A stretch of DNA of 64,000 nt from a virus (IMGVR_UViG_3300011008_000034:113648-177647); one strand, 5' to 3'. Positions 33,718-39,948 are shown, counted from the first letter of the stretch. The notes: generated from the sequence alone by a model not told the origin. A program made the numbers and translations.

Positions 33718-35739
33718 TTATACATTTTTTTCTATTCTTTTTCGTTCAGCATTAACATCATCTTTGTTTTGAATGTTATTATTATTTCGTTGTATTTCCT
33801 TTTTATTTCCTTCACTTGAAATTCCAGTAATTGTTCCTTTGCTATTATTTATGCATCTATAATTATTATCAAATTCTTGTTCTGTAATTACATCCTTGAT
33901 TTCACCGTCACGACCCGTTATGGTTTCCGTTTTTGTTCTTTTTATTTCTGGTTCTTGAGCTTGTGATTGACGACCTTCCGTTGTTTTTGAATCTGTTGTT
34001 TCTCCTTTTGAAGGGACTTTATATTCACCTAATACTAAGTTTTTAGGGATAATTATTGCCGCATCAATATAATTAGTCAAAACAATATTAATTTGTTCTT
34101 CTATTTGCGCAAGAGAATTTCCAAATTTTCCTTCATTTAATGCTATAATAGCATATTTTAATTCATCAAATTGTTGTTGTATATTACTTTGTTCTAATAC
34201 ATCTTTAAATGCTTCTATGGTTTCATATGTTTTTAAATCTAGGTCTGATTTCCATTTTATTTGTGTTCCAGCTTTATCTGATGTCATTGTTACGTTTGTA
34301 GCAGATGATTTTACGCCTGCGCTATTTGCTAAATTATCTGCTATATTTTTTACATATGTTCCGTAATCTCTTCCATCTTGTTTATTTATTTCACCATTAT
34401 TTATTTCACCATTAATATTTGTAACGCCTTTATATACAAATTTTGTTCTATCAAAATCATAAATAAAGATTTCAAAATCACCAATTTTTTGTGGCGTTTC
34501 TTGAATTTGGCCATTAGGTAAACGTGTTTGTTGGACTTTATAAAATTCTCCCGTACTTTTTCCAGTTCTACGATTCCATTTTAAATTATATGTTTCTGAA
34601 TCCCAAGGCTCATTAGCATTATTTGCTTCTTTTAATGCTAATGTTGTCCATTTATCTGCTCGTTTTTCTTCATCGGATTTTTCTTGAGCAGCTTTCATTG
34701 CTGGTTGTGAAATATCTATTCCATATTCTTTTATAGCAATAGATTTTACAGTGTCTCCAGCAAGTACAGTGTATTCTTTAAAATTATTAGTATCTCGATA
34801 TTTTTTTGATTCAGATACAATATCAGCCAATTGCGGACAATACCCAGTATTAACATCATAATATGTTTTGTATAATAATAACATCTGATCAATTGCTGAG
34901 GGTTCGCCCATCATACGTCCAAATGTCAATGATAATGTCATTGTTGATTCTTTGTTTGTATTAATATTTCTTCTTATTGCAGATACATAATAAATACTTT
35001 GCGCGTCTGTTTTTTGTGCTGCGTAACTTGCTCGTAATCCTTTATACGATGAACTAGTTCTTATTCCTCCAATAGTACCATTTAAATCACTACCAGATAT
35101 TTCTTTTGAATCACTAACTGCTTCGGCTGCTTTTTCTTCAGTTCCGTTATTTGCTGAAACGTTGTCTTTTGTTTTTTCAGCACTTTGCACTTGTGCTTTA
35201 TCTCCCATTACTTCTGGAGAACTATCTTTTTTATTACTTTGTTCTTCTGTTTTTACAGTTAATTTTGGAAGTTCTATATTTACCACATCTTTTCCCATTG
35301 ATGAAAATGCTGAGACTATTCCTCCATTTACTGCATTTTGAGCATTTTGTAATGATTGATAATTATGTTGATTTGACATATTTCCCCATGCAGAAGGAGC
35401 ACTAGACCCATTTTCTTGAGAAGCTAATGGCTTATGAGGATGTTCATCATATGCAAAAAATCTTACAGGATTTCCAATTTTTATAGCACTATCATCTATC
35501 ATACTTAATGTACCTGAATAACGTTCAGCTACAGATTTTGCACACATCATATATCCTAATACATGCGCATTTTCTTTATTTCCCATATGAGGAATATTAA
35601 AAGTTCGTGGAGACGGACGACATCCAAAACGAATCATAGAATTAATATCAGGAAATACTCGACGAATTTTTCCCAATGGACCTGCTTGTTCATAAGGAGA
35701 ATGATCTCCAATAATTTCGACTTCATACATATTGTAAAA
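33718..35739 (-). CDS. Baseplate hub-like protein, exon 2 (contains LysM)
   Basis: Begins TTT TAC AAT ATG directly after the intron's terminal G and is in frame with exon 1; IKIGNPVRF...YYVSAIRR...MTLSLTFGR hub C-terminal pattern; LysM YTVLAGDTVKSIA. Confidence 0.8.
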   Translation of the reverse strand, partial: FYNMYEVEIIGDHSPYEQAGPLGKIRRVFPDINSMIRFGCRPSPRTFNIPHMGNKENAHVLGYMMCAKSVAERYSGTLSMIDDSAIKIGNPVRFFAYDEHPHKPLASQENGSSAPSAWGNMSNQHNYQSLQNAQNAVNGGIVSAFSSMGKDVVNIELPKLTVKTEEQSNKKDSSPEVMGDKAQVQSAEKTKDNVSANNGTEEKAAEAVSDSKEISGSDLNGTIGGIRTSSSYKGLRASYAAQKTDAQSIYYVSAIRRNINTNKESTMTLSLTFGRMMGEPSAIDQMLLLYKTYYDVNTGYCPQLADIVSESKKYRDTNNFKEYTVLAGDTVKSIAIKEYGIDISQPAMKAAQEKSDEEKRADKWTTLALKEANNANEPWDSETYNLKWNRRTGKSTGEFYKVQQTRLPNGQIQETPQKIGDFEIFIYDFDRTKFVYKGVTNINGEINNGEINKQDGRDYGTYVKNIADNLANSAGVKSSATNVTMTSDKAGTQIKWKSDLDLKTYETIEAFKDVLEQSNIQQQFDELKYAIIALNEGKFGNSLAQIEEQINIVLTNYIDAAIIIPKNLVLGEYKVPSKGETTDSKTTEGRQSQAQEPEIKRTKTETITGRDGEIKDVITEQEFDNNYRCINNSKGTITGISSEGNKKEIQRNNNNIQNKDDVNAERKRIEKNV

Positions 35740-35880
35740 CTGTTATATTTAACTAAAAGTTAAATTTGCTATTTCATCGAACCCCATTTTGTCGAAACTA
35801 ATTTGGTTTGTATAGTTCTCAATAGCTTAAAGTTGTAACAACAACTCTAAAGTTAATACTTTTCTTATTAAGTATTATAC
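35740..35880 (-). ncRNA. Putative TnpB omegaRNA scaffold, also the intron's 3' end
   Basis: Stem-rich non-coding segment right after tnpB: AGAGTTGT/ACAACTTT, GCTATT..GAAC/GTTC..AATAGC, and subterminal ATTTAACT-TTT-AGTTAAAT; its position matches known omegaRNAs. Confidence 0.6.
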
Positions 35881-37022
35881 TTTTCTAAATTTTTAGCTGC
35901 ATTTAAATCTCGATCTATTATTAATTTACAAATTGGACATTTATATATTCTAACATTTAATTTTAAATTCTTTTTTATATGTCCACAGTTTGAACATGTT
36001 TTTGAGCTAGGATAAAATCTATCAGCTAATACAAATTCAATTCCTTCAAATTTACATTTGTATTTTATTTGTCGCTTAAATTCATAAAATTTTTGTTCAG
36101 ATATACTTTTTGCAAGATATTTATTTTTCATCATTCCTCTAACATTTAAATCTTCCATCACAATTCGTTTTGGATGTTGATTAATTAAAAACCTTGTTAT
36201 TTGATGAATATAATTATTACGTATGTTAGTTTGTTTTGCACATAATCTTTGATATTTTTGAACTTCTTTAAAATATCTATTTGAACAACGTATTTTATTT
36301 TTTTTATTTATACGATATTTTCTAGCCAAATTTCTTTGAACATGTTTTATTTGTGATTCTAATTTTTTCATTTTTTTAGATCGATTAATATTATTAAATG
36401 CGAATTGTTTATTTCCAAAAGAAACAACAGCTAATTTTTTTACTCCAAGGTCAATACCCATACTATCGTTATTTGCATTATTATTATTATTTACTTGGTT
36501 ATCGTATTTTAATGCAAATGATAAAATCCATTTTCCATTTTTTAATGATATTCTAGGATTAATTGCGTGTAATTTAAATCTTCCCAATGGAAAATTAAAT
36601 TTTGTTTTACATTTTACTTTTCCGCATTTTTCAATATTTACTAAATTTTTTGTTCGAAAATAAACATTCGTTTGACATGTAGGAAAAGATAACTTTGTTT
36701 TATGCTTACTTTTAAATTTAGGATATCCTTGATTTCCATTGAAAAAATTTTGAAATGCAAAATGCATATCGGTACATATTATTTGTAATGATGCATTGGC
36801 TATTTCTTGAAGCCAATCATGTTGACCATCATATTTTAAATTTTTTGTTATTTCCATCATGTCAAATCTTGATATATGTTTATTGTTTAATTTATATTCA
36901 TTATTTTGACATTCAAGTAAATAATTATATATATACCTGCAACATCCTATATGTTTTAAAAATAATTCTTCTTGTTCTTTTGTTGGATATAACCTTATTT
37001 TATAACCTTTTATTATTGTCAC
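35868..37022 (-). CDS. tnpB: TnpB RNA-guided endonuclease (IS200/IS605/IS607 OrfB family)
   Basis: KGYKIRLYPTKEQ HTH, GYPKFKSK, RuvC-I GIDLG, RuvC-II VMEDL, PSSKTCSNCG/CPIC Zn finger, RuvC-III DRDLNAA; GTG start at 37022 after AGGAGGTG. Confidence 0.95.
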   Translation of the reverse strand: MTIIKGYKIRLYPTKEQEELFLKHIGCCRYIYNYLLECQNNEYKLNNKHISRFDMMEITKNLKYDGQHDWLQEIANASLQIICTDMHFAFQNFFNGNQGYPKFKSKHKTKLSFPTCQTNVYFRTKNLVNIEKCGKVKCKTKFNFPLGRFKLHAINPRISLKNGKWILSFALKYDNQVNNNNNANNDSMGIDLGVKKLAVVSFGNKQFAFNNINRSKKMKKLESQIKHVQRNLARKYRINKKNKIRCSNRYFKEVQKYQRLCAKQTNIRNNYIHQITRFLINQHPKRIVMEDLNVRGMMKNKYLAKSISEQKFYEFKRQIKYKCKFEGIEFVLADRFYPSSKTCSNCGHIKKNLKLNVRIYKCPICKLIIDRDLNAAKNLEKYNT

Positions 37023-37059
37023 AATTTTCACCTCCTTTATAATTAAATAAAAGAAATGA

Positions 37060-37458
37060 ATAAATTTAACTACCGTTCGTTAGACGTGTTAGCTATTTTA
37101 TAGCTCTCTTATTTTCATAAGAGCATAGACTATATCATTCTCACCATATCATTTCATTTTATAAAACGAAATGACTTAGGTTTTGTCCCCCACTTCCCAG
37201 TCACTTGACCAGTACGAGCATTTCAGCTACATAGTCGTTGAACCTTCCTCTTTAATAAAAGGAGGATTGGCTGCGGATTGCCCAATTCTTAATGTTTTTA
37301 CCATACATGAGTAATTAATTCATCCATAATAATATCACTATTATTATTTGGTAATTAAGACTCTAAGGGGTTTCCCGCAATTCGAGGGAATACATATAAT
37401 ACGTTTCCATATTATACGAACTATTTCATATTAGAAAGTCGATATCTAATATGATTTA
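37060..37458 (-). ncRNA. Group I ribozyme core (IA2-like)
   Basis: P GAATTGCGGGAAA (37371-37383), Q AATCCGCAGC (37270-37279), R GTTCAACGACTA (37232-37243), S GATATAGTCT (37127-37136); P7 GACTA/TAGTC with two extra stems after it; GAAA-capped P2 and P9. Confidence 0.92.
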
Positions 37459-39948
37459 ATTTTCGTCACTTTCTTGTGTAGTAAAAGAAATAATATATTC
37501 TTGTGGAATTTCGGGAATTAATGCATCTGTTAATTCAGATAATGTACAATCATACCATTGACGTTTTGCACGTTCCAATTTAGCTTTTGAAATATTTTTT
37601 CCAGTATCTACATATTCATATGTTTCTTTTCCCTTTTTCTCAGCTTCTTCGGCTAATACTTTTGAAGCTGAGCTTGCATTTTCTACTGCTTTTTCATATG
37701 ATGTATTAATATTTAATGCTTCGCCATTTAATTTATATAAATCATTTGGGTCAACATCTTTAAATTTGTCAGGATTTTGTGCTATAATTTCTTTATATTT
37801 ATTTCCGTCTCCCAACCATTTTTCAGCAAGACTAACTAATGTATCTCCTTGTTGTACTCTAATAGTTGTAGTATTATTTGCTAATCTATTTGCTAATCCC
37901 GCAGTATTTGCGGACCCCGATGTACCTAATCTTACGTTTTCATCTTTTGCGTTTATTCCTTGTCTTCGTGTTTGTTCATAAAAACTTTCTTGAGCAGATG
38001 CATTCATAGACTCCTTTTGAGCTTGACTCATATGAACAATTTTCTGTTTATCTGGGTCTCGAACATATAATCCATCACTACCTTTAACTTGACCTTTTTT
38101 GGGGTCTGGTACTGAATCTTTATTTGTTCCAGGTATTTTCATCATGCCATTTTTTAGCATTTCTTCATCTTTACCAATTAAATCATTTTGGATTGGAAGT
38201 TCTTCATCATGTCTAGCCCAATATCCATTAATCATGTTTTTTGTATTAATCTCTTCTGAATCCAATAATCCATCTTTTAATTGTTCATATCCCATATTAT
38301 TTTTTACAAGACGATTTGCTCCAAGTGCATAATTAGGCGCTTTTAATACAATATTTCCTTCTTCATCTGCAAAAAATTCTAATAATAAATCTTGAGCAGC
38401 GCGTTTACAAACAGATAATCTTGTTTCAGCTGAAGCGGACATAAGTTGGTCAGATGCTGCTTGTTTGATATTAAAAGTAAAAGGTGGAAATTCAATTGGT
38501 TCTATTCTTTCTCTTAAATACCATGTTGGAATACCAGCATCTAAACATAATTGCGTTACTATTTCTACTAATCTTAATCCTGCAAAAATATTTTGCATTG
38601 TCATGCTTTTCCATGCAGCATGTAATGCACGTTCTTCTTCTTTATTAGCACTGGAAATATTTTTTTCCTTCATAATTGCTAATACTTCAAATGGATTAAA
38701 AATTTCTACAGTACCAAAATTTTTATTATCAATATTTCCCCATCTTAAGTCTAATCCTGTATTTCCCATCGATGCACCGGCAATCATGGTAGGATTTGTA
38801 GAAACATAACTCAATTCAAGCATTTTTAATTGGTCTTGTGCTGTTATCATAATTTGACATCCAGCATTTGCTCCTGAAGTATGTGTCTTTTTGACCGAAT
38901 TAATATATCCGAAGAATATTTGATTCATTTTAAAATCATTAGTTTGTTCATCACGTTCAAAATTTGATTTACCAAATACCCATACTTCATCCATACTTTC
39001 CCAATCACATTTTTCAGCAAACTTCCAACCAGATGTAGGACCAGGAGTATCATCAACGTTTTTTACTTTTTCATATGCCATTGGATATTCAGTTGGAAGG
39101 TTTAACGTAACTGTTTTTCCGTTTCCGTAATCAAATGTTGCTTCAGTTGTAGTAGCTTTTTCATTATCAAATGTAGTTTTTTCAGTAATTTTTGTCGTTT
39201 TGTTAATTGCAGTAAAAGTACGATTTCCTACTTTTGTTTTAGATATATCTCCATCTTTTGTTTCATTTGTTGCTGCAAATTTAGTTGCTCCACCTTGTTC
39301 AGTGTTACTATCAATTCTATTTTGGTCGGTTTTTGCCCCATTTCTTTGACCCATAGAATTATTTCCATCGCGATAAATATCTGCATATCCAGGATTTTCC
39401 ATTCCATTTATCATTCTATTCATAGATGGAATTCCCGTTTCAACGAATGTATCTTGTTCATAACACATTACTCTTTCTGCACCTTGAATGGTTAATGAAC
39501 ATGTTCCTGACGATAATATTGAAGTTGAAATAGATACATTGACAAAATTATCTATTTTATAAGTGCGCATATAATTTCCTTTACTTGCTTTGTCTTTATC
39601 TATTTCACCAACAGACATTCTTTGATTTGCTGCATTAGCTGCATAAAATAATTTTTTTCTAATAAATACAACGTAATCTTGTTTAAAATTAACAATTTTT
39701 TTAGAACCAGCTCGTTGTTTATATTGTTCTTGTATGCCCTCTAAATGTTGAGGTTGGTCATACATTTTATATTTAGAACCTTGTAAAATATCATCACTAG
39801 CACTTAATTCAATGGTGCCAGCATCAACATTATAGCCTACTCGTTGATCGCTTTCAGGAGTAGAATAAGGGTCTTTTCCAGATTTTCCATCATTTTGATT
39901 TGTACTTTGTATAGCATTTGTTTCTTTAGTCTTATCGTTTTCTGACAT
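37459..39948 (-). CDS. Baseplate hub-like protein, exon 1 (contains LysM); spliced product 1503 aa
   Basis: QIFFGYINSV...ITAQDQLKML, LEFFADEEGNIVLKAP hub (gp27/gpD-like) pattern; LysM VQQGDTLVSLAEKWLGDG. Confidence 0.8.

What the first reader, a model, noticed from the sequence alone, without database searches (positions are those of the whole stretch)
35740..37458. Self-splicing intron with TnpB and no transposase in a virion gene: candidate RNA-guided homing intron
Seen: the two neighbouring ORFs (830 and 670 aa) are one gene. A complete group I core starts at the apparent stop codon (GAC GAA AAT|TAA) and the element ends ATAACAG|TTT TAC AAT ATG, so splicing gives an in-frame 1503-aa hub protein. 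The exon end and first intron bases (AAU|UA) can pair with intron UAGUU, placing the required U-G at the splice site; the upstream ACG could additionally pair with the adjacent CGU. The only cargo is a TnpB with all three RuvC acidic residues plus a structured 3' tail, with no room for tnpA. Known: IStrons combine a group I intron with IS605/IS607 genes, TnpB takes its guide from the sequence just beyond the element's 3' end, and phage group I introns usually home using protein-only endonucleases (GIY-YIG, HNH and others). Inference: the guide would be the start of exon 2 (TTTTACAATATGTATGAAG) and the TAM the end of exon 1 (...GAAAAT). TnpB would then cut only the intron-less allele of a co-infecting relative, acting as an RNA-guided homing endonuclease. 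The same RNA end must serve as both 3' splice site and omegaRNA, linking tail production to nuclease arming.
Basis: partly seen in the sequence, partly recalled or inferred. Interest (0 to 1): 0.9.

Follow-up and report, generated by a model that had tools for sequence, protein, structure and literature searches.

The report
TnpB-only IStron splitting megaphage tail gene
A 1.7-kb selfish element (an "IStron": a self-splicing intron carrying an RNA-guided nuclease gene and its guide-RNA scaffold) interrupts a tail/baseplate gene of an uncultured giant phage. It is a real, well-formed variant of a known class, but whether the nuclease spreads the intron between phages is still only a hypothesis, and one already in the literature.

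Summary
On the minus strand, 37458..35740 is a 1,719-nt element holding:
- a complete group I intron core (Rfam, 78 bits);
- an intact 387-aa tnpB (RuvC D194/E293/D375 and the zinc finger);
- a RAGATH-18 omegaRNA scaffold.

Removing it joins the 830-aa and 670-aa ORFs colinearly with uninterrupted homologues (ESDEN|FYNMYEV against ESDEN|LFNMYEV and ESDEQ|FYNMYEV).

In about 20 related elements the exon tail covaries with the guide sequence at the same position.

It is an IStron. The cargo is IS607/group-B type: 44% identity to the Clostridium phage c-st IStron TnpB. The junctions are not group B: a U·G splice site, an AAAAT flank and a CAG end, instead of GG and CGG.

It is single-copy in the 177-kb record, which holds no tnpA. 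Its TnpB clade consists largely of TnpB-only IStrons on viral contigs.

RNA-guided homing remains inference. The TAM is unknown, close relatives sit after GG-containing flanks, and the nearest empty allele has a different flank and one seed mismatch. A 2026 review already proposes the idea, and this scan has noted such phage IStrons in at least 50 other genomes.

The parts
35740..37458 (-). Whole IStron (1,719 nt = 573 codons), equal to the intron from the 5' splice site to omegaG
   Evidence: Colinearity with uninterrupted homologues.
37459..39948 (-). Exon 1 of the tail/baseplate gene (830 codons, ends ...GAC GAA AAT)
   Evidence: Homologue of phage G gp185.
37457..37461 (-). P1 5' strand AAU|UA. 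The 5' splice site lies between 37459 and 37458, after the U of the U·G pair
   Evidence: MFE fold. Homologous U·G position in relatives.
37426..37454 (-). P1 extension hairpin (10-bp stem, 9-nt loop) between the splice site and the guide sequence
37419..37423 (-). Internal guide sequence UAGUU. Its G pairs with the last exon U
   Evidence: The conserved 'UAg' lies 36-42 nt 5' of J3/4 in relatives, and its 3' part covaries with the exon tail.
37393..37418 (-). P2 hairpin
37106..37437 (-). Group I catalytic core (P3-P9, J3/4 AAUUGCGGGAAA, P7 strands GACUA/UAGUC)
   Evidence: Rfam RF00028, 78 bits, full-length match.
35868..37031 (-). tnpB (387 aa from GTG, preceded by AAGGAGG), catalytically intact
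   Evidence: Pfam, PHROG 506, invariant D194/E293/D375 and CxxC...CxxC.
35766..35826 (-). omegaRNA scaffold core (RAGATH-18 motif)
   Evidence: Rfam RF03064, 55 bits. In the 22-sequence alignment, 20 of 31 predicted pairs show compensatory changes.
35748..35764 (-). Terminal scaffold hairpin UUUAACU-uuu-AGUUAAA
   Evidence: Identical hairpin in L010, L011 and L097.
35740..35747 (-). Scaffold end and 3' splice site, UAUAACAG, with omegaG at 35740
   Evidence: Relatives end in AACGG or AACAG.
35720..35739 (-). Start of exon 2 (TTTTACAATATGTATGAAGT): the presumed guide template and the target in an empty allele
   Evidence: Inferred from the position just 3' of the scaffold, using knowledge of TnpB (10.1101/2023.11.20.567912). 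Not tested here.
33718..35739 (-). Exon 2 (673 codons plus stop). Its first ~100 residues are the most widely conserved part of the protein

Best explanation
This is a TnpB-only IStron of the IS607/RAGATH-18 lineage, lodged in one tail/baseplate gene of an uncultured megaphage related to Bacillus phage G.

The whole element is transcribed within the host gene. Its 5' group I ribozyme pairs the exon end with the guide sequence (AAU|UA with UAGUU, a U·G pair at the cleavage site). It excises 37458..35740, ending at omegaG 35740. This restores an in-frame 1503-codon message.

Unspliced transcripts supply the TnpB message. They also supply, from the last ~130 nt plus the first ~16-20 nt of exon 2, an omegaRNA whose guide matches the intron-less junction. 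Splicing and guide production therefore compete for the same RNA end, as was shown for CboIStron.

Shown here in silico: the anatomy, the junction, P1, the intact catalytic residues, the conserved covarying scaffold, and the absence of tnpA.

Inferred: that splicing occurs, that TnpB loads this RNA, and that it cuts empty alleles. My estimate that TnpB-guided homing or retention operates for this copy is about 0.35.
For: - Rfam finds the intron and RAGATH-18.
- TnpB has all its domains and catalytic residues.
- The exons are colinear with P0121, L093 and L095 at the predicted junction.
- The P1 fold has z = -4.3.
- In ~20 relatives the exon tail covaries with the guide sequence: GGAT/UAgUCC, CGGCT/UAgGUCG, GGAAT/UAgUUCC, TGAAT/UAgUUCA, GAAAT/UAgUUUC, GCAAT/UAgUUGC, TCGAT/UAgUCGA.
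- The U·G junction is in frame in 5 of 5 relatives tested.
- For L016, the junction is confirmed to the base by an empty allele in the 97-99% identical phage L023.
- The omegaRNA scaffold has 20 of 31 pairs with compensatory changes.
- The TnpB clade at 45% identity or more is almost all intron-linked on viral contigs.
- No Y1 TnpA is found in 32 such records. Serine recombinase is found in 3 of 32, far from the one element I checked.
- TnpB is 44% identical to that of the described IStron in Clostridium phage c-st.
Against: - There are no RNA data, so splicing and omegaRNA processing are unobserved.
- The record is only about 36% complete by CheckV. A tnpA or further copies could lie in the unsequenced part.
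- The 5' flank (AAAAT) and the 3' end (CAG) differ from the GG/CGG rule of classical group B IStrons, so the family assignment applies to the cargo, not to the junctions.
- P10 is weak. Exon 2 starts UUUU, against AUA/AAA 5' of the guide G.
Confidence: 0.85

Rival explanations
1. This is the first reader's reading: the element is a dedicated RNA-guided homing intron. TnpB-omegaRNA, guided by the start of exon 2 and using the exon-1 end (GAAAAT) as TAM, cuts intron-less alleles of co-infecting relatives. Repair then copies the intron in.
For: - TnpB and the scaffold are intact and conserved.
- No tnpA is found here or in 32 related viral records, 12 of them at least 90% complete.
- The distribution is sporadic: relatives L095, L093 and L008 are intron-less at this exact site.
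- The site lies at the most conserved stretch of the protein.
- In the related L016/L023 pair, one empty site matches the other phage's presumed guide 40/40 with the same TGGCT flank.
- The second insertion in that pair sits in a ~1.3-kb tract of raised divergence with clustered synonymous changes at the site, which looks like co-conversion.
- The idea is stated in PMC13565253.
Against: - The TAM is unknown. The closest relatives have TGGAT or TGGGT flanks, and reported IS607-type TAMs are G-rich.
- Only the -1 T is shared across the clade, and that T is also required for splicing.
- The nearest empty allele (L095) has the flank AACAA and a mismatch at target position 6.
- No allele with a perfectly matching empty site was found for this element.
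- Relatives sit in unrelated genes (a tail gene, nrdG, others), which guide-directed homing alone cannot produce.
Confidence: 0.35
2. The element is an ordinary non-autonomous IStron. A serine-recombinase TnpA acting in trans put it here, from the host cell, another phage or the unsequenced ~64% of this genome. TnpB serves only for retention after excision.
For: - The cargo is IS607-type.
- A near-identical relative family (L016, L017, L023, L025, L031; 91-94% identity) occupies at least five different sites.
- The record is incomplete.
- Bacterial MAGs of Clostridia carry related TnpBs, a few with room for tnpA.
Against: - IS607 transposases need a GG core, and the site here has none. Intron-less relatives show GAAAAT|TTG, so it had none before insertion either.
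- There is no tnpA in 177 kb, and no second copy.
- 10 of 12 near-complete related phage genomes carry no serine recombinase at all.
Confidence: 0.2
3. TnpB is a stranded passenger with no DNA-targeting role at this site. The element persists only because splicing makes it harmless and precise loss is rare. TnpB binding may merely modulate splicing.
For: - The flank is atypical for the clade.
- The element is single-copy.
- No matching empty allele is known.
- TnpB was reported to influence splicing levels in CboIStron (10.1101/2023.11.20.567912).
Against: All catalytic and zinc-binding residues, and every scaffold helix, are kept despite only 61% identity to the nearest TnpB. This argues for continued selection on the ribonucleoprotein.
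Confidence: 0.15

Closest known systems
Group B (IS607-type) IStrons: CbISt3/CbISt4 of Clostridium botulinum phages c-st and D-1873, BcISt1, CboIStron (Tourasse 2014, PMC4227781; Zedaveinyte 2023, 10.1101/2023.11.20.567912)
   Same: - The layout is the same: group I intron at the 5' end, then tnpB, then the omegaRNA at the 3' end overlapping the 3' splice site.
- TnpB is 44% identical to that of c-st.
- The scaffold is RAGATH-18-type.
- P2 and the guide-sequence position are homologous to the c-st element.
- TnpB-only copies are known.
- Phage residence is known.
   Different: - The 5' exon ends AAAAU with a canonical U·G pair, instead of GG with a G-C pair.
- The 3' end is CAG, not CGG.
- There is no GG core for a serine transposase.
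- P1 carries a 10-bp extension hairpin.
- The host is a phage-G-like megaphage, not a Clostridium prophage.
Group A (IS200/IS605-type) IStrons: CdISt1 / CdiIStron of Clostridioides difficile
   Same: - The flank is A/T-rich and ends in T (TTGAT, ATTAT, TTTAT; AAAAT here).
- The element ends in CAG (TCAG there, ACAG here).
- The splice site is a U·G pair.
- Most copies lack tnpA.
   Different: - The TnpB and omegaRNA here are of the RAGATH-18/IS607 lineage, not IS605.
- The pentanucleotide does not match any of the three described.
Phage group I introns with protein homing endonucleases (T4 td/I-TevI, Twort, SPO1)
   Same: - A self-splicing intron sits at a highly conserved site of an essential phage gene.
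- Its distribution among relatives is sporadic.
- An endonuclease ORF is looped out of the ribozyme.
   Different: The endonuclease would be RNA-guided, with its specificity supplied by the adjacent exon, and its guide competes with the 3' splice site.

Membership tests
IStron (chimeric group I intron + IS200/605/607 element) | Group I ribozyme at the 5' end of the element | tested here: met
   RF00028, 78 bits, full model.
IStron (chimeric group I intron + IS200/605/607 element) | IS605/IS607-family ORF inside the intron, 3' of the ribozyme | tested here: met
   Three TnpB Pfam domains.
IStron (chimeric group I intron + IS200/605/607 element) | Element ends coincide with splice sites, so removal restores the host ORF | tested here: met
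   Colinear with P0121, L093 and L095 without a gap.
IStron (chimeric group I intron + IS200/605/607 element) | Splicing in vivo or in vitro | not testable with these tools
   No RNA data.
IStron (chimeric group I intron + IS200/605/607 element) | Copies at several unrelated sites (mobility) | tested here: not met
   There is one copy in the 177-kb record. The feature is met at clade level: L016-type copies occupy at least 5 sites.
Group B (IS607-type) IStron | IS607-lineage TnpB with a RAGATH-18 omegaRNA | tested here: met
   RF03064, 55 bits. 44% identity to the c-st TnpB.
Group B (IS607-type) IStron | Inserted after GG, with the last exon G paired to C in P1 | tested here: not met
   The flank is GAAAAT with a U·G pair. 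The empty alleles also lack GG.
Group B (IS607-type) IStron | 3' terminus CGG | tested here: not met
   The element ends ACAG. Most relatives end in CGG; a few, such as L015 and L047, end in CAG.
Group B (IS607-type) IStron | Serine-recombinase TnpA in full-length copies | tested here: not met
   No PF00239 hit in the record. The record is incomplete.
Group A (IS605-type) IStron | Flank TTGAT, ATTAT or TTTAT and terminus TCAG | tested here: not met
   AAAAT and ACAG: similar in character, but not the described motifs.
TnpB / OMEGA RNA-guided nuclease | RuvC D-E-D triad and zinc finger | tested here: met
   D194, E293, D375, C346, C349, C365 and C368 are invariant in 25 sequences.
TnpB / OMEGA RNA-guided nuclease | Structured omegaRNA at the element's 3' end, running into the flank | tested here: inconclusive
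   The scaffold is present and covaries. Extension into exon 2 is not observable.
TnpB / OMEGA RNA-guided nuclease | TAM-dependent cleavage of the guide-matching DNA | not testable with these tools
   The TAM could not be derived. Flanks vary between lineages and covary with the guide sequence.
Mobile (homing) group I intron | Intron-plus and intron-minus alleles among relatives | tested here: met
   L095 (77% aa identity), L093 and L008 are empty at the site.
Mobile (homing) group I intron | Encoded endonuclease cuts the intron-minus allele | not testable with these tools
   L095 differs in the flank and at target position 6.

The most novel reading that the evidence does not exclude
The phage-borne clade to which this element belongs may have left the transposon life cycle altogether. 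These would be IS607-type TnpB/omegaRNA modules that have acquired canonical U·G splice junctions and no longer need, or have, a GG core or a TnpA. They would persist as true RNA-guided homing introns in essential phage genes. This copy would then use a non-G TAM ending in the same T that forms the U·G pair, so that one nucleotide serves splicing, TAM recognition and self/non-self discrimination (flank ...T against element end ...G).
Probability: 0.3. Interest if true: 0.7.

Novelty: new variant of a known kind. Interest (0 to 1): 0.35.

Why it matters
IStrons, TnpB-only IStrons, phage-borne IStrons and the conflict between splicing and guide production are all published. The homing idea is in a 2026 review as an untested proposal. 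This copy therefore does not open a new category.

It adds a clean example of a hybrid design: cargo of the IS607/RAGATH-18 type with canonical U·G junctions at a site lacking GG.

The family survey shows that such TnpB-only elements are common in large phages. It also shows that their exon flank covaries with the ribozyme guide sequence, and that some occupied/empty allele pairs exist between near-identical phages.

That makes RNA-guided intron homing testable with synthetic constructs. This particular uncultured phage is not the best test case.

Tried and rejected
- Megablast of the region against GenBank phages found nothing.
- A single-protein scan of IMG/VR with TnpB found nothing. The alignment-based scan worked.
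- A metagenome scan for the exon-2 start pattern gave 0 hits and missed even L095.
- The exact 3'-hairpin pattern found no viral or genome contigs and only two metagenome contigs.
- My first two automatic junction finders were too noisy and were discarded. A version anchored on the conserved 'UAg' position was used instead.
- I considered a 'classical group B' splice site directly after GG for the relatives. I rejected it because it is out of frame in L016 and is contradicted by the empty allele in L023.
- PDB sequence searches for the host protein gave nothing, so 'hub' stays a positional guess.
- P0141 looked like a second split allele, but its junction is uninterrupted and its gene is divided elsewhere.
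- No TAM could be derived from the flanks.

Full report
**Observation**

On the minus strand, an 830-aa ORF (39948..37456) and a 670-aa ORF (35730..33718) flank a 387-aa ORF (37031..35868).

An Rfam scan of the whole window gives exactly two hits, both inside the finding:
- Intron_gpI at 37437..37106: 78 bits, E=4e-18, full model.
- RAGATH-18 at 35826..35766: 55 bits.

The middle ORF has the three TnpB Pfam domains and matches PHROG 506 over its full length. In an alignment with 24 relatives, the RuvC residues D194, E293 and D375 and the four zinc-finger cysteines are invariant.

Only 74 nt separate the ribozyme from tnpB, and 127 nt follow the tnpB stop. There is no room for a transposase gene.

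**The two ORFs are one gene**

Both ORFs match consecutive parts of PHROG 14367. A search for longer proteins found uninterrupted homologues of about 1500 aa.

Against the best of them (P0121, 1513 aa, from a 504-kb phage contig):
- exon 1 ends ...FTTQESDEN at residue 851;
- exon 2, read from 35739, starts FYNMYEV at residue 852, with no gap.

The exhaustive representative search found a closer relative, P0143 (77% identity). Its 1,080-bp contig L095 reads ...CAAGAAAGTGATGAACAA|TTTTATAATATGTATGAAGTGG, an empty site. Two more distant megaphages are also empty: L008 has GATGAAAAT|CTCTTT and L093 has GATGAAAAT|TTGTTT.

So the intron is 37458..35740 (1,719 nt), and the joined product has 830+3+670 = 1503 residues. 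The only sliding ambiguity is one T, and it is resolved by the need for a terminal G.

Most database relatives of exon 2 align only to its first ~100 residues. The intron therefore sits at the edge of the most conserved segment of the protein.

**P1 and the splice site**

The minimum-energy fold of 37467..37391 (z = -4.3) contains four features:
- AAU|UA pairs with UAGUU, which puts the last exon U opposite a G.
- A 10-bp hairpin extends P1.
- P2 is formed.

In related elements, a conserved 'UAg' lies at the same distance (36-42 nt) 5' of the J3/4 sequence GAAUUGC. The nucleotides 3' of its G covary with the exon tail:

| Exon tail | Guide sequence |
|---|---|
| GGAT | UAgUCC |
| CGGCT | UAgGUCG |
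| GGAAT | UAgUUCC |
| TGAAT | UAgUUCA |
| GGAGT | UAgCUCC |
| GAAAT | UAgUUUC |
| GCAAT | UAgUUGC |
| TCGAT | UAgUCGA |

The script required a T at -1, so that position is not independent evidence. Two independent checks support the junction:
- It is in frame (phase 0/0) in five of five relatives tested, whereas a junction directly after GG is out of frame in L016.
- For L016, a phage with 97-99% identical flanks (L023) carries the empty site. It reads exactly as the predicted ligated exons...AATGGCT|CAAGCAC....

**What family it belongs to**

According to PMC13565253, RAGATH-18 is the omegaRNA of IS607-family TnpB.

The TnpB is 44% identical to the OrfB of the IStron in Clostridium phage c-st. 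That element is one of the group B IStrons of Tourasse et al. 2014 (PMC4227781), and its P2 and guide-sequence position are homologous to the ones here.

The nearest TnpBs are only about 61% identical. The two I examined also sit in phage contigs:
- L010 lies in a tail gene: intron 93.9 bits, tnpB, then RAGATH-18.
- L011 lies in nrdG, next to an nrdD full of HNH introns.

An alignment-based scan of IMG/VR returned 80 loci. Nearly all those with at least 45% identity carry the group I P7 signature 100-300 nt upstream of tnpB. The more distant ones do not.

The 3' untranslated regions of 22 elements align into one scaffold, with compensatory changes in 20 of 31 predicted pairs.

Among 32 viral records holding such elements:
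- None has a Y1 transposase.
- Three have a serine recombinase. Two of those are integrase-sized (532 and 563 aa). The third (232 aa, in G021) lies more than 100 kb from its IStron locus L038. I did not check how far the two integrase-sized genes lie from their IStrons.
- Ten of the twelve near-complete genomes have no serine recombinase.

In one-genome-per-species bacterial contigs, only a few Clostridia-class MAG contigs reach 48-55% identity.

**Where this copy departs from the described groups**

| Feature | Classical group B | This element |
|---|---|---|
| Insertion site | after GG | after GAAAAT |
| Last exon nucleotide in P1 | G paired to C | U in a U·G pair |
| 3' terminus | CGG | ACAG |
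| CboTnpB TAM (10.1101/2023.11.20.567912) | TGGG | unknown |

The intron-less relatives show that GAAAAT is original host sequence without any GG.

The three elements that share its terminal hairpin sit after TGGAT, TGGAT and TGGGT and end in CGG. The A-only flank is therefore derived.

The junctions resemble group A (a T-ending A/T-rich flank and a ...CAG end), while the cargo is group B. I file it as an IStron, but not as a member of either described group.

**Copy number and transposase**

The 177,647-bp record (CheckV completeness about 36%) holds one copy of the element, one TnpB and one group I intron. It has no Y1 or serine recombinase.

A second assembly of the same phage is 100% identical over 11 kb.

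**Homing**

The hypothesis that TnpB cuts the empty allele is mechanistically reasonable. Three lines support it:
- The ribonucleoprotein parts are conserved.
- tnpA is absent.
- The distribution among relatives is sporadic.

Support also comes from one pair of relatives:
- L023 is empty at L016's site, with a 40/40 match to the presumed guide and the same TGGCT flank.
- L016 is empty at L023's site, but with five synonymous differences within 15 nt of the junction.
- L023's element lies in a ~1.3-kb tract of raised divergence in otherwise nearly identical genes. This resembles co-conversion but could be ordinary mosaicism.

For the window's own element the case is weaker:
- The TAM is unknown.
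- The flank is atypical for the clade.
- The only close empty allele has the flank AACAA and a C-to-T difference at target position 6.
- No perfectly matching empty site was found.
- The sub-clade occupies unrelated genes, so some other process must create new insertions. Candidates are a transposase acting in trans, or reverse splicing at sites that fit the guide sequence.

**Literature and earlier notes**

The following are published:
- IStrons.
- Phage-borne group B IStrons (PMC4227781).
- The antagonism between splicing and omegaRNA production (10.1101/2023.11.20.567912; PMC13521648).
- The explicit suggestion that TnpA-less IStrons spread by intron homing, 'awaiting experimental validation' (PMC13565253).

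This scan has already noted TnpB-carrying phage IStrons 138 times, in at least 50 genomes. Those notes agree with my reading but are not independent evidence.

**Verdict**

The element is a new variant (group-B cargo with canonical U·G junctions at a non-GG site) of a known kind. Interest is moderate to low.

Noticed in passing
L016:2511-4279 and L023:2512-4279 (IMG/VR contigs 3300045988_089288 and _074121): Two phages with 97-99% identical flanks each carry a 94%-identical TnpB-only IStron at different GGCT sites about 1.15 kb apart in the same gene, and each is empty at the other's site. One empty site matches the presumed guide 40/40. The other has five synonymous changes within 15 nt and lies in a ~1.3-kb tract of raised divergence.
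   Followed up: partly
L016, L017, L023, L025, L031 (IMG/VR, metagenome 3300045988): One IStron family (91-94% identity) occupies at least five different sites on different viral contigs. The three flanks I examined all end in GGCT. None of the 32 related viral records searched, which include these contigs, has a Y1 transposase.
   Followed up: partly
L011:1-7300: A phage nrdD gene is broken into at least five pieces by inserts carrying HNH endonuclease ORFs, at least one with an Rfam group I intron hit. The adjacent nrdG is split by a TnpB-only IStron.
   Followed up: partly
P0141 contig (ENA ERZ27256887, 22 kb): In one relative the homologous tail gene is called as three ORFs (566, 110 and 847 aa), divided at places other than the IStron site. 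The cause (introns, frameshifts or a true split) could not be examined because no DNA was available.
   Followed up: no
L010:5673-5895: The Rfam scan at the gathering threshold missed a group I intron that scores 93.9 bits when the region is searched with the permissive filters. A negative 'gathering' scan is therefore not proof that an intron is absent.
   Followed up: yes
I did not check this here.
   Followed up: no
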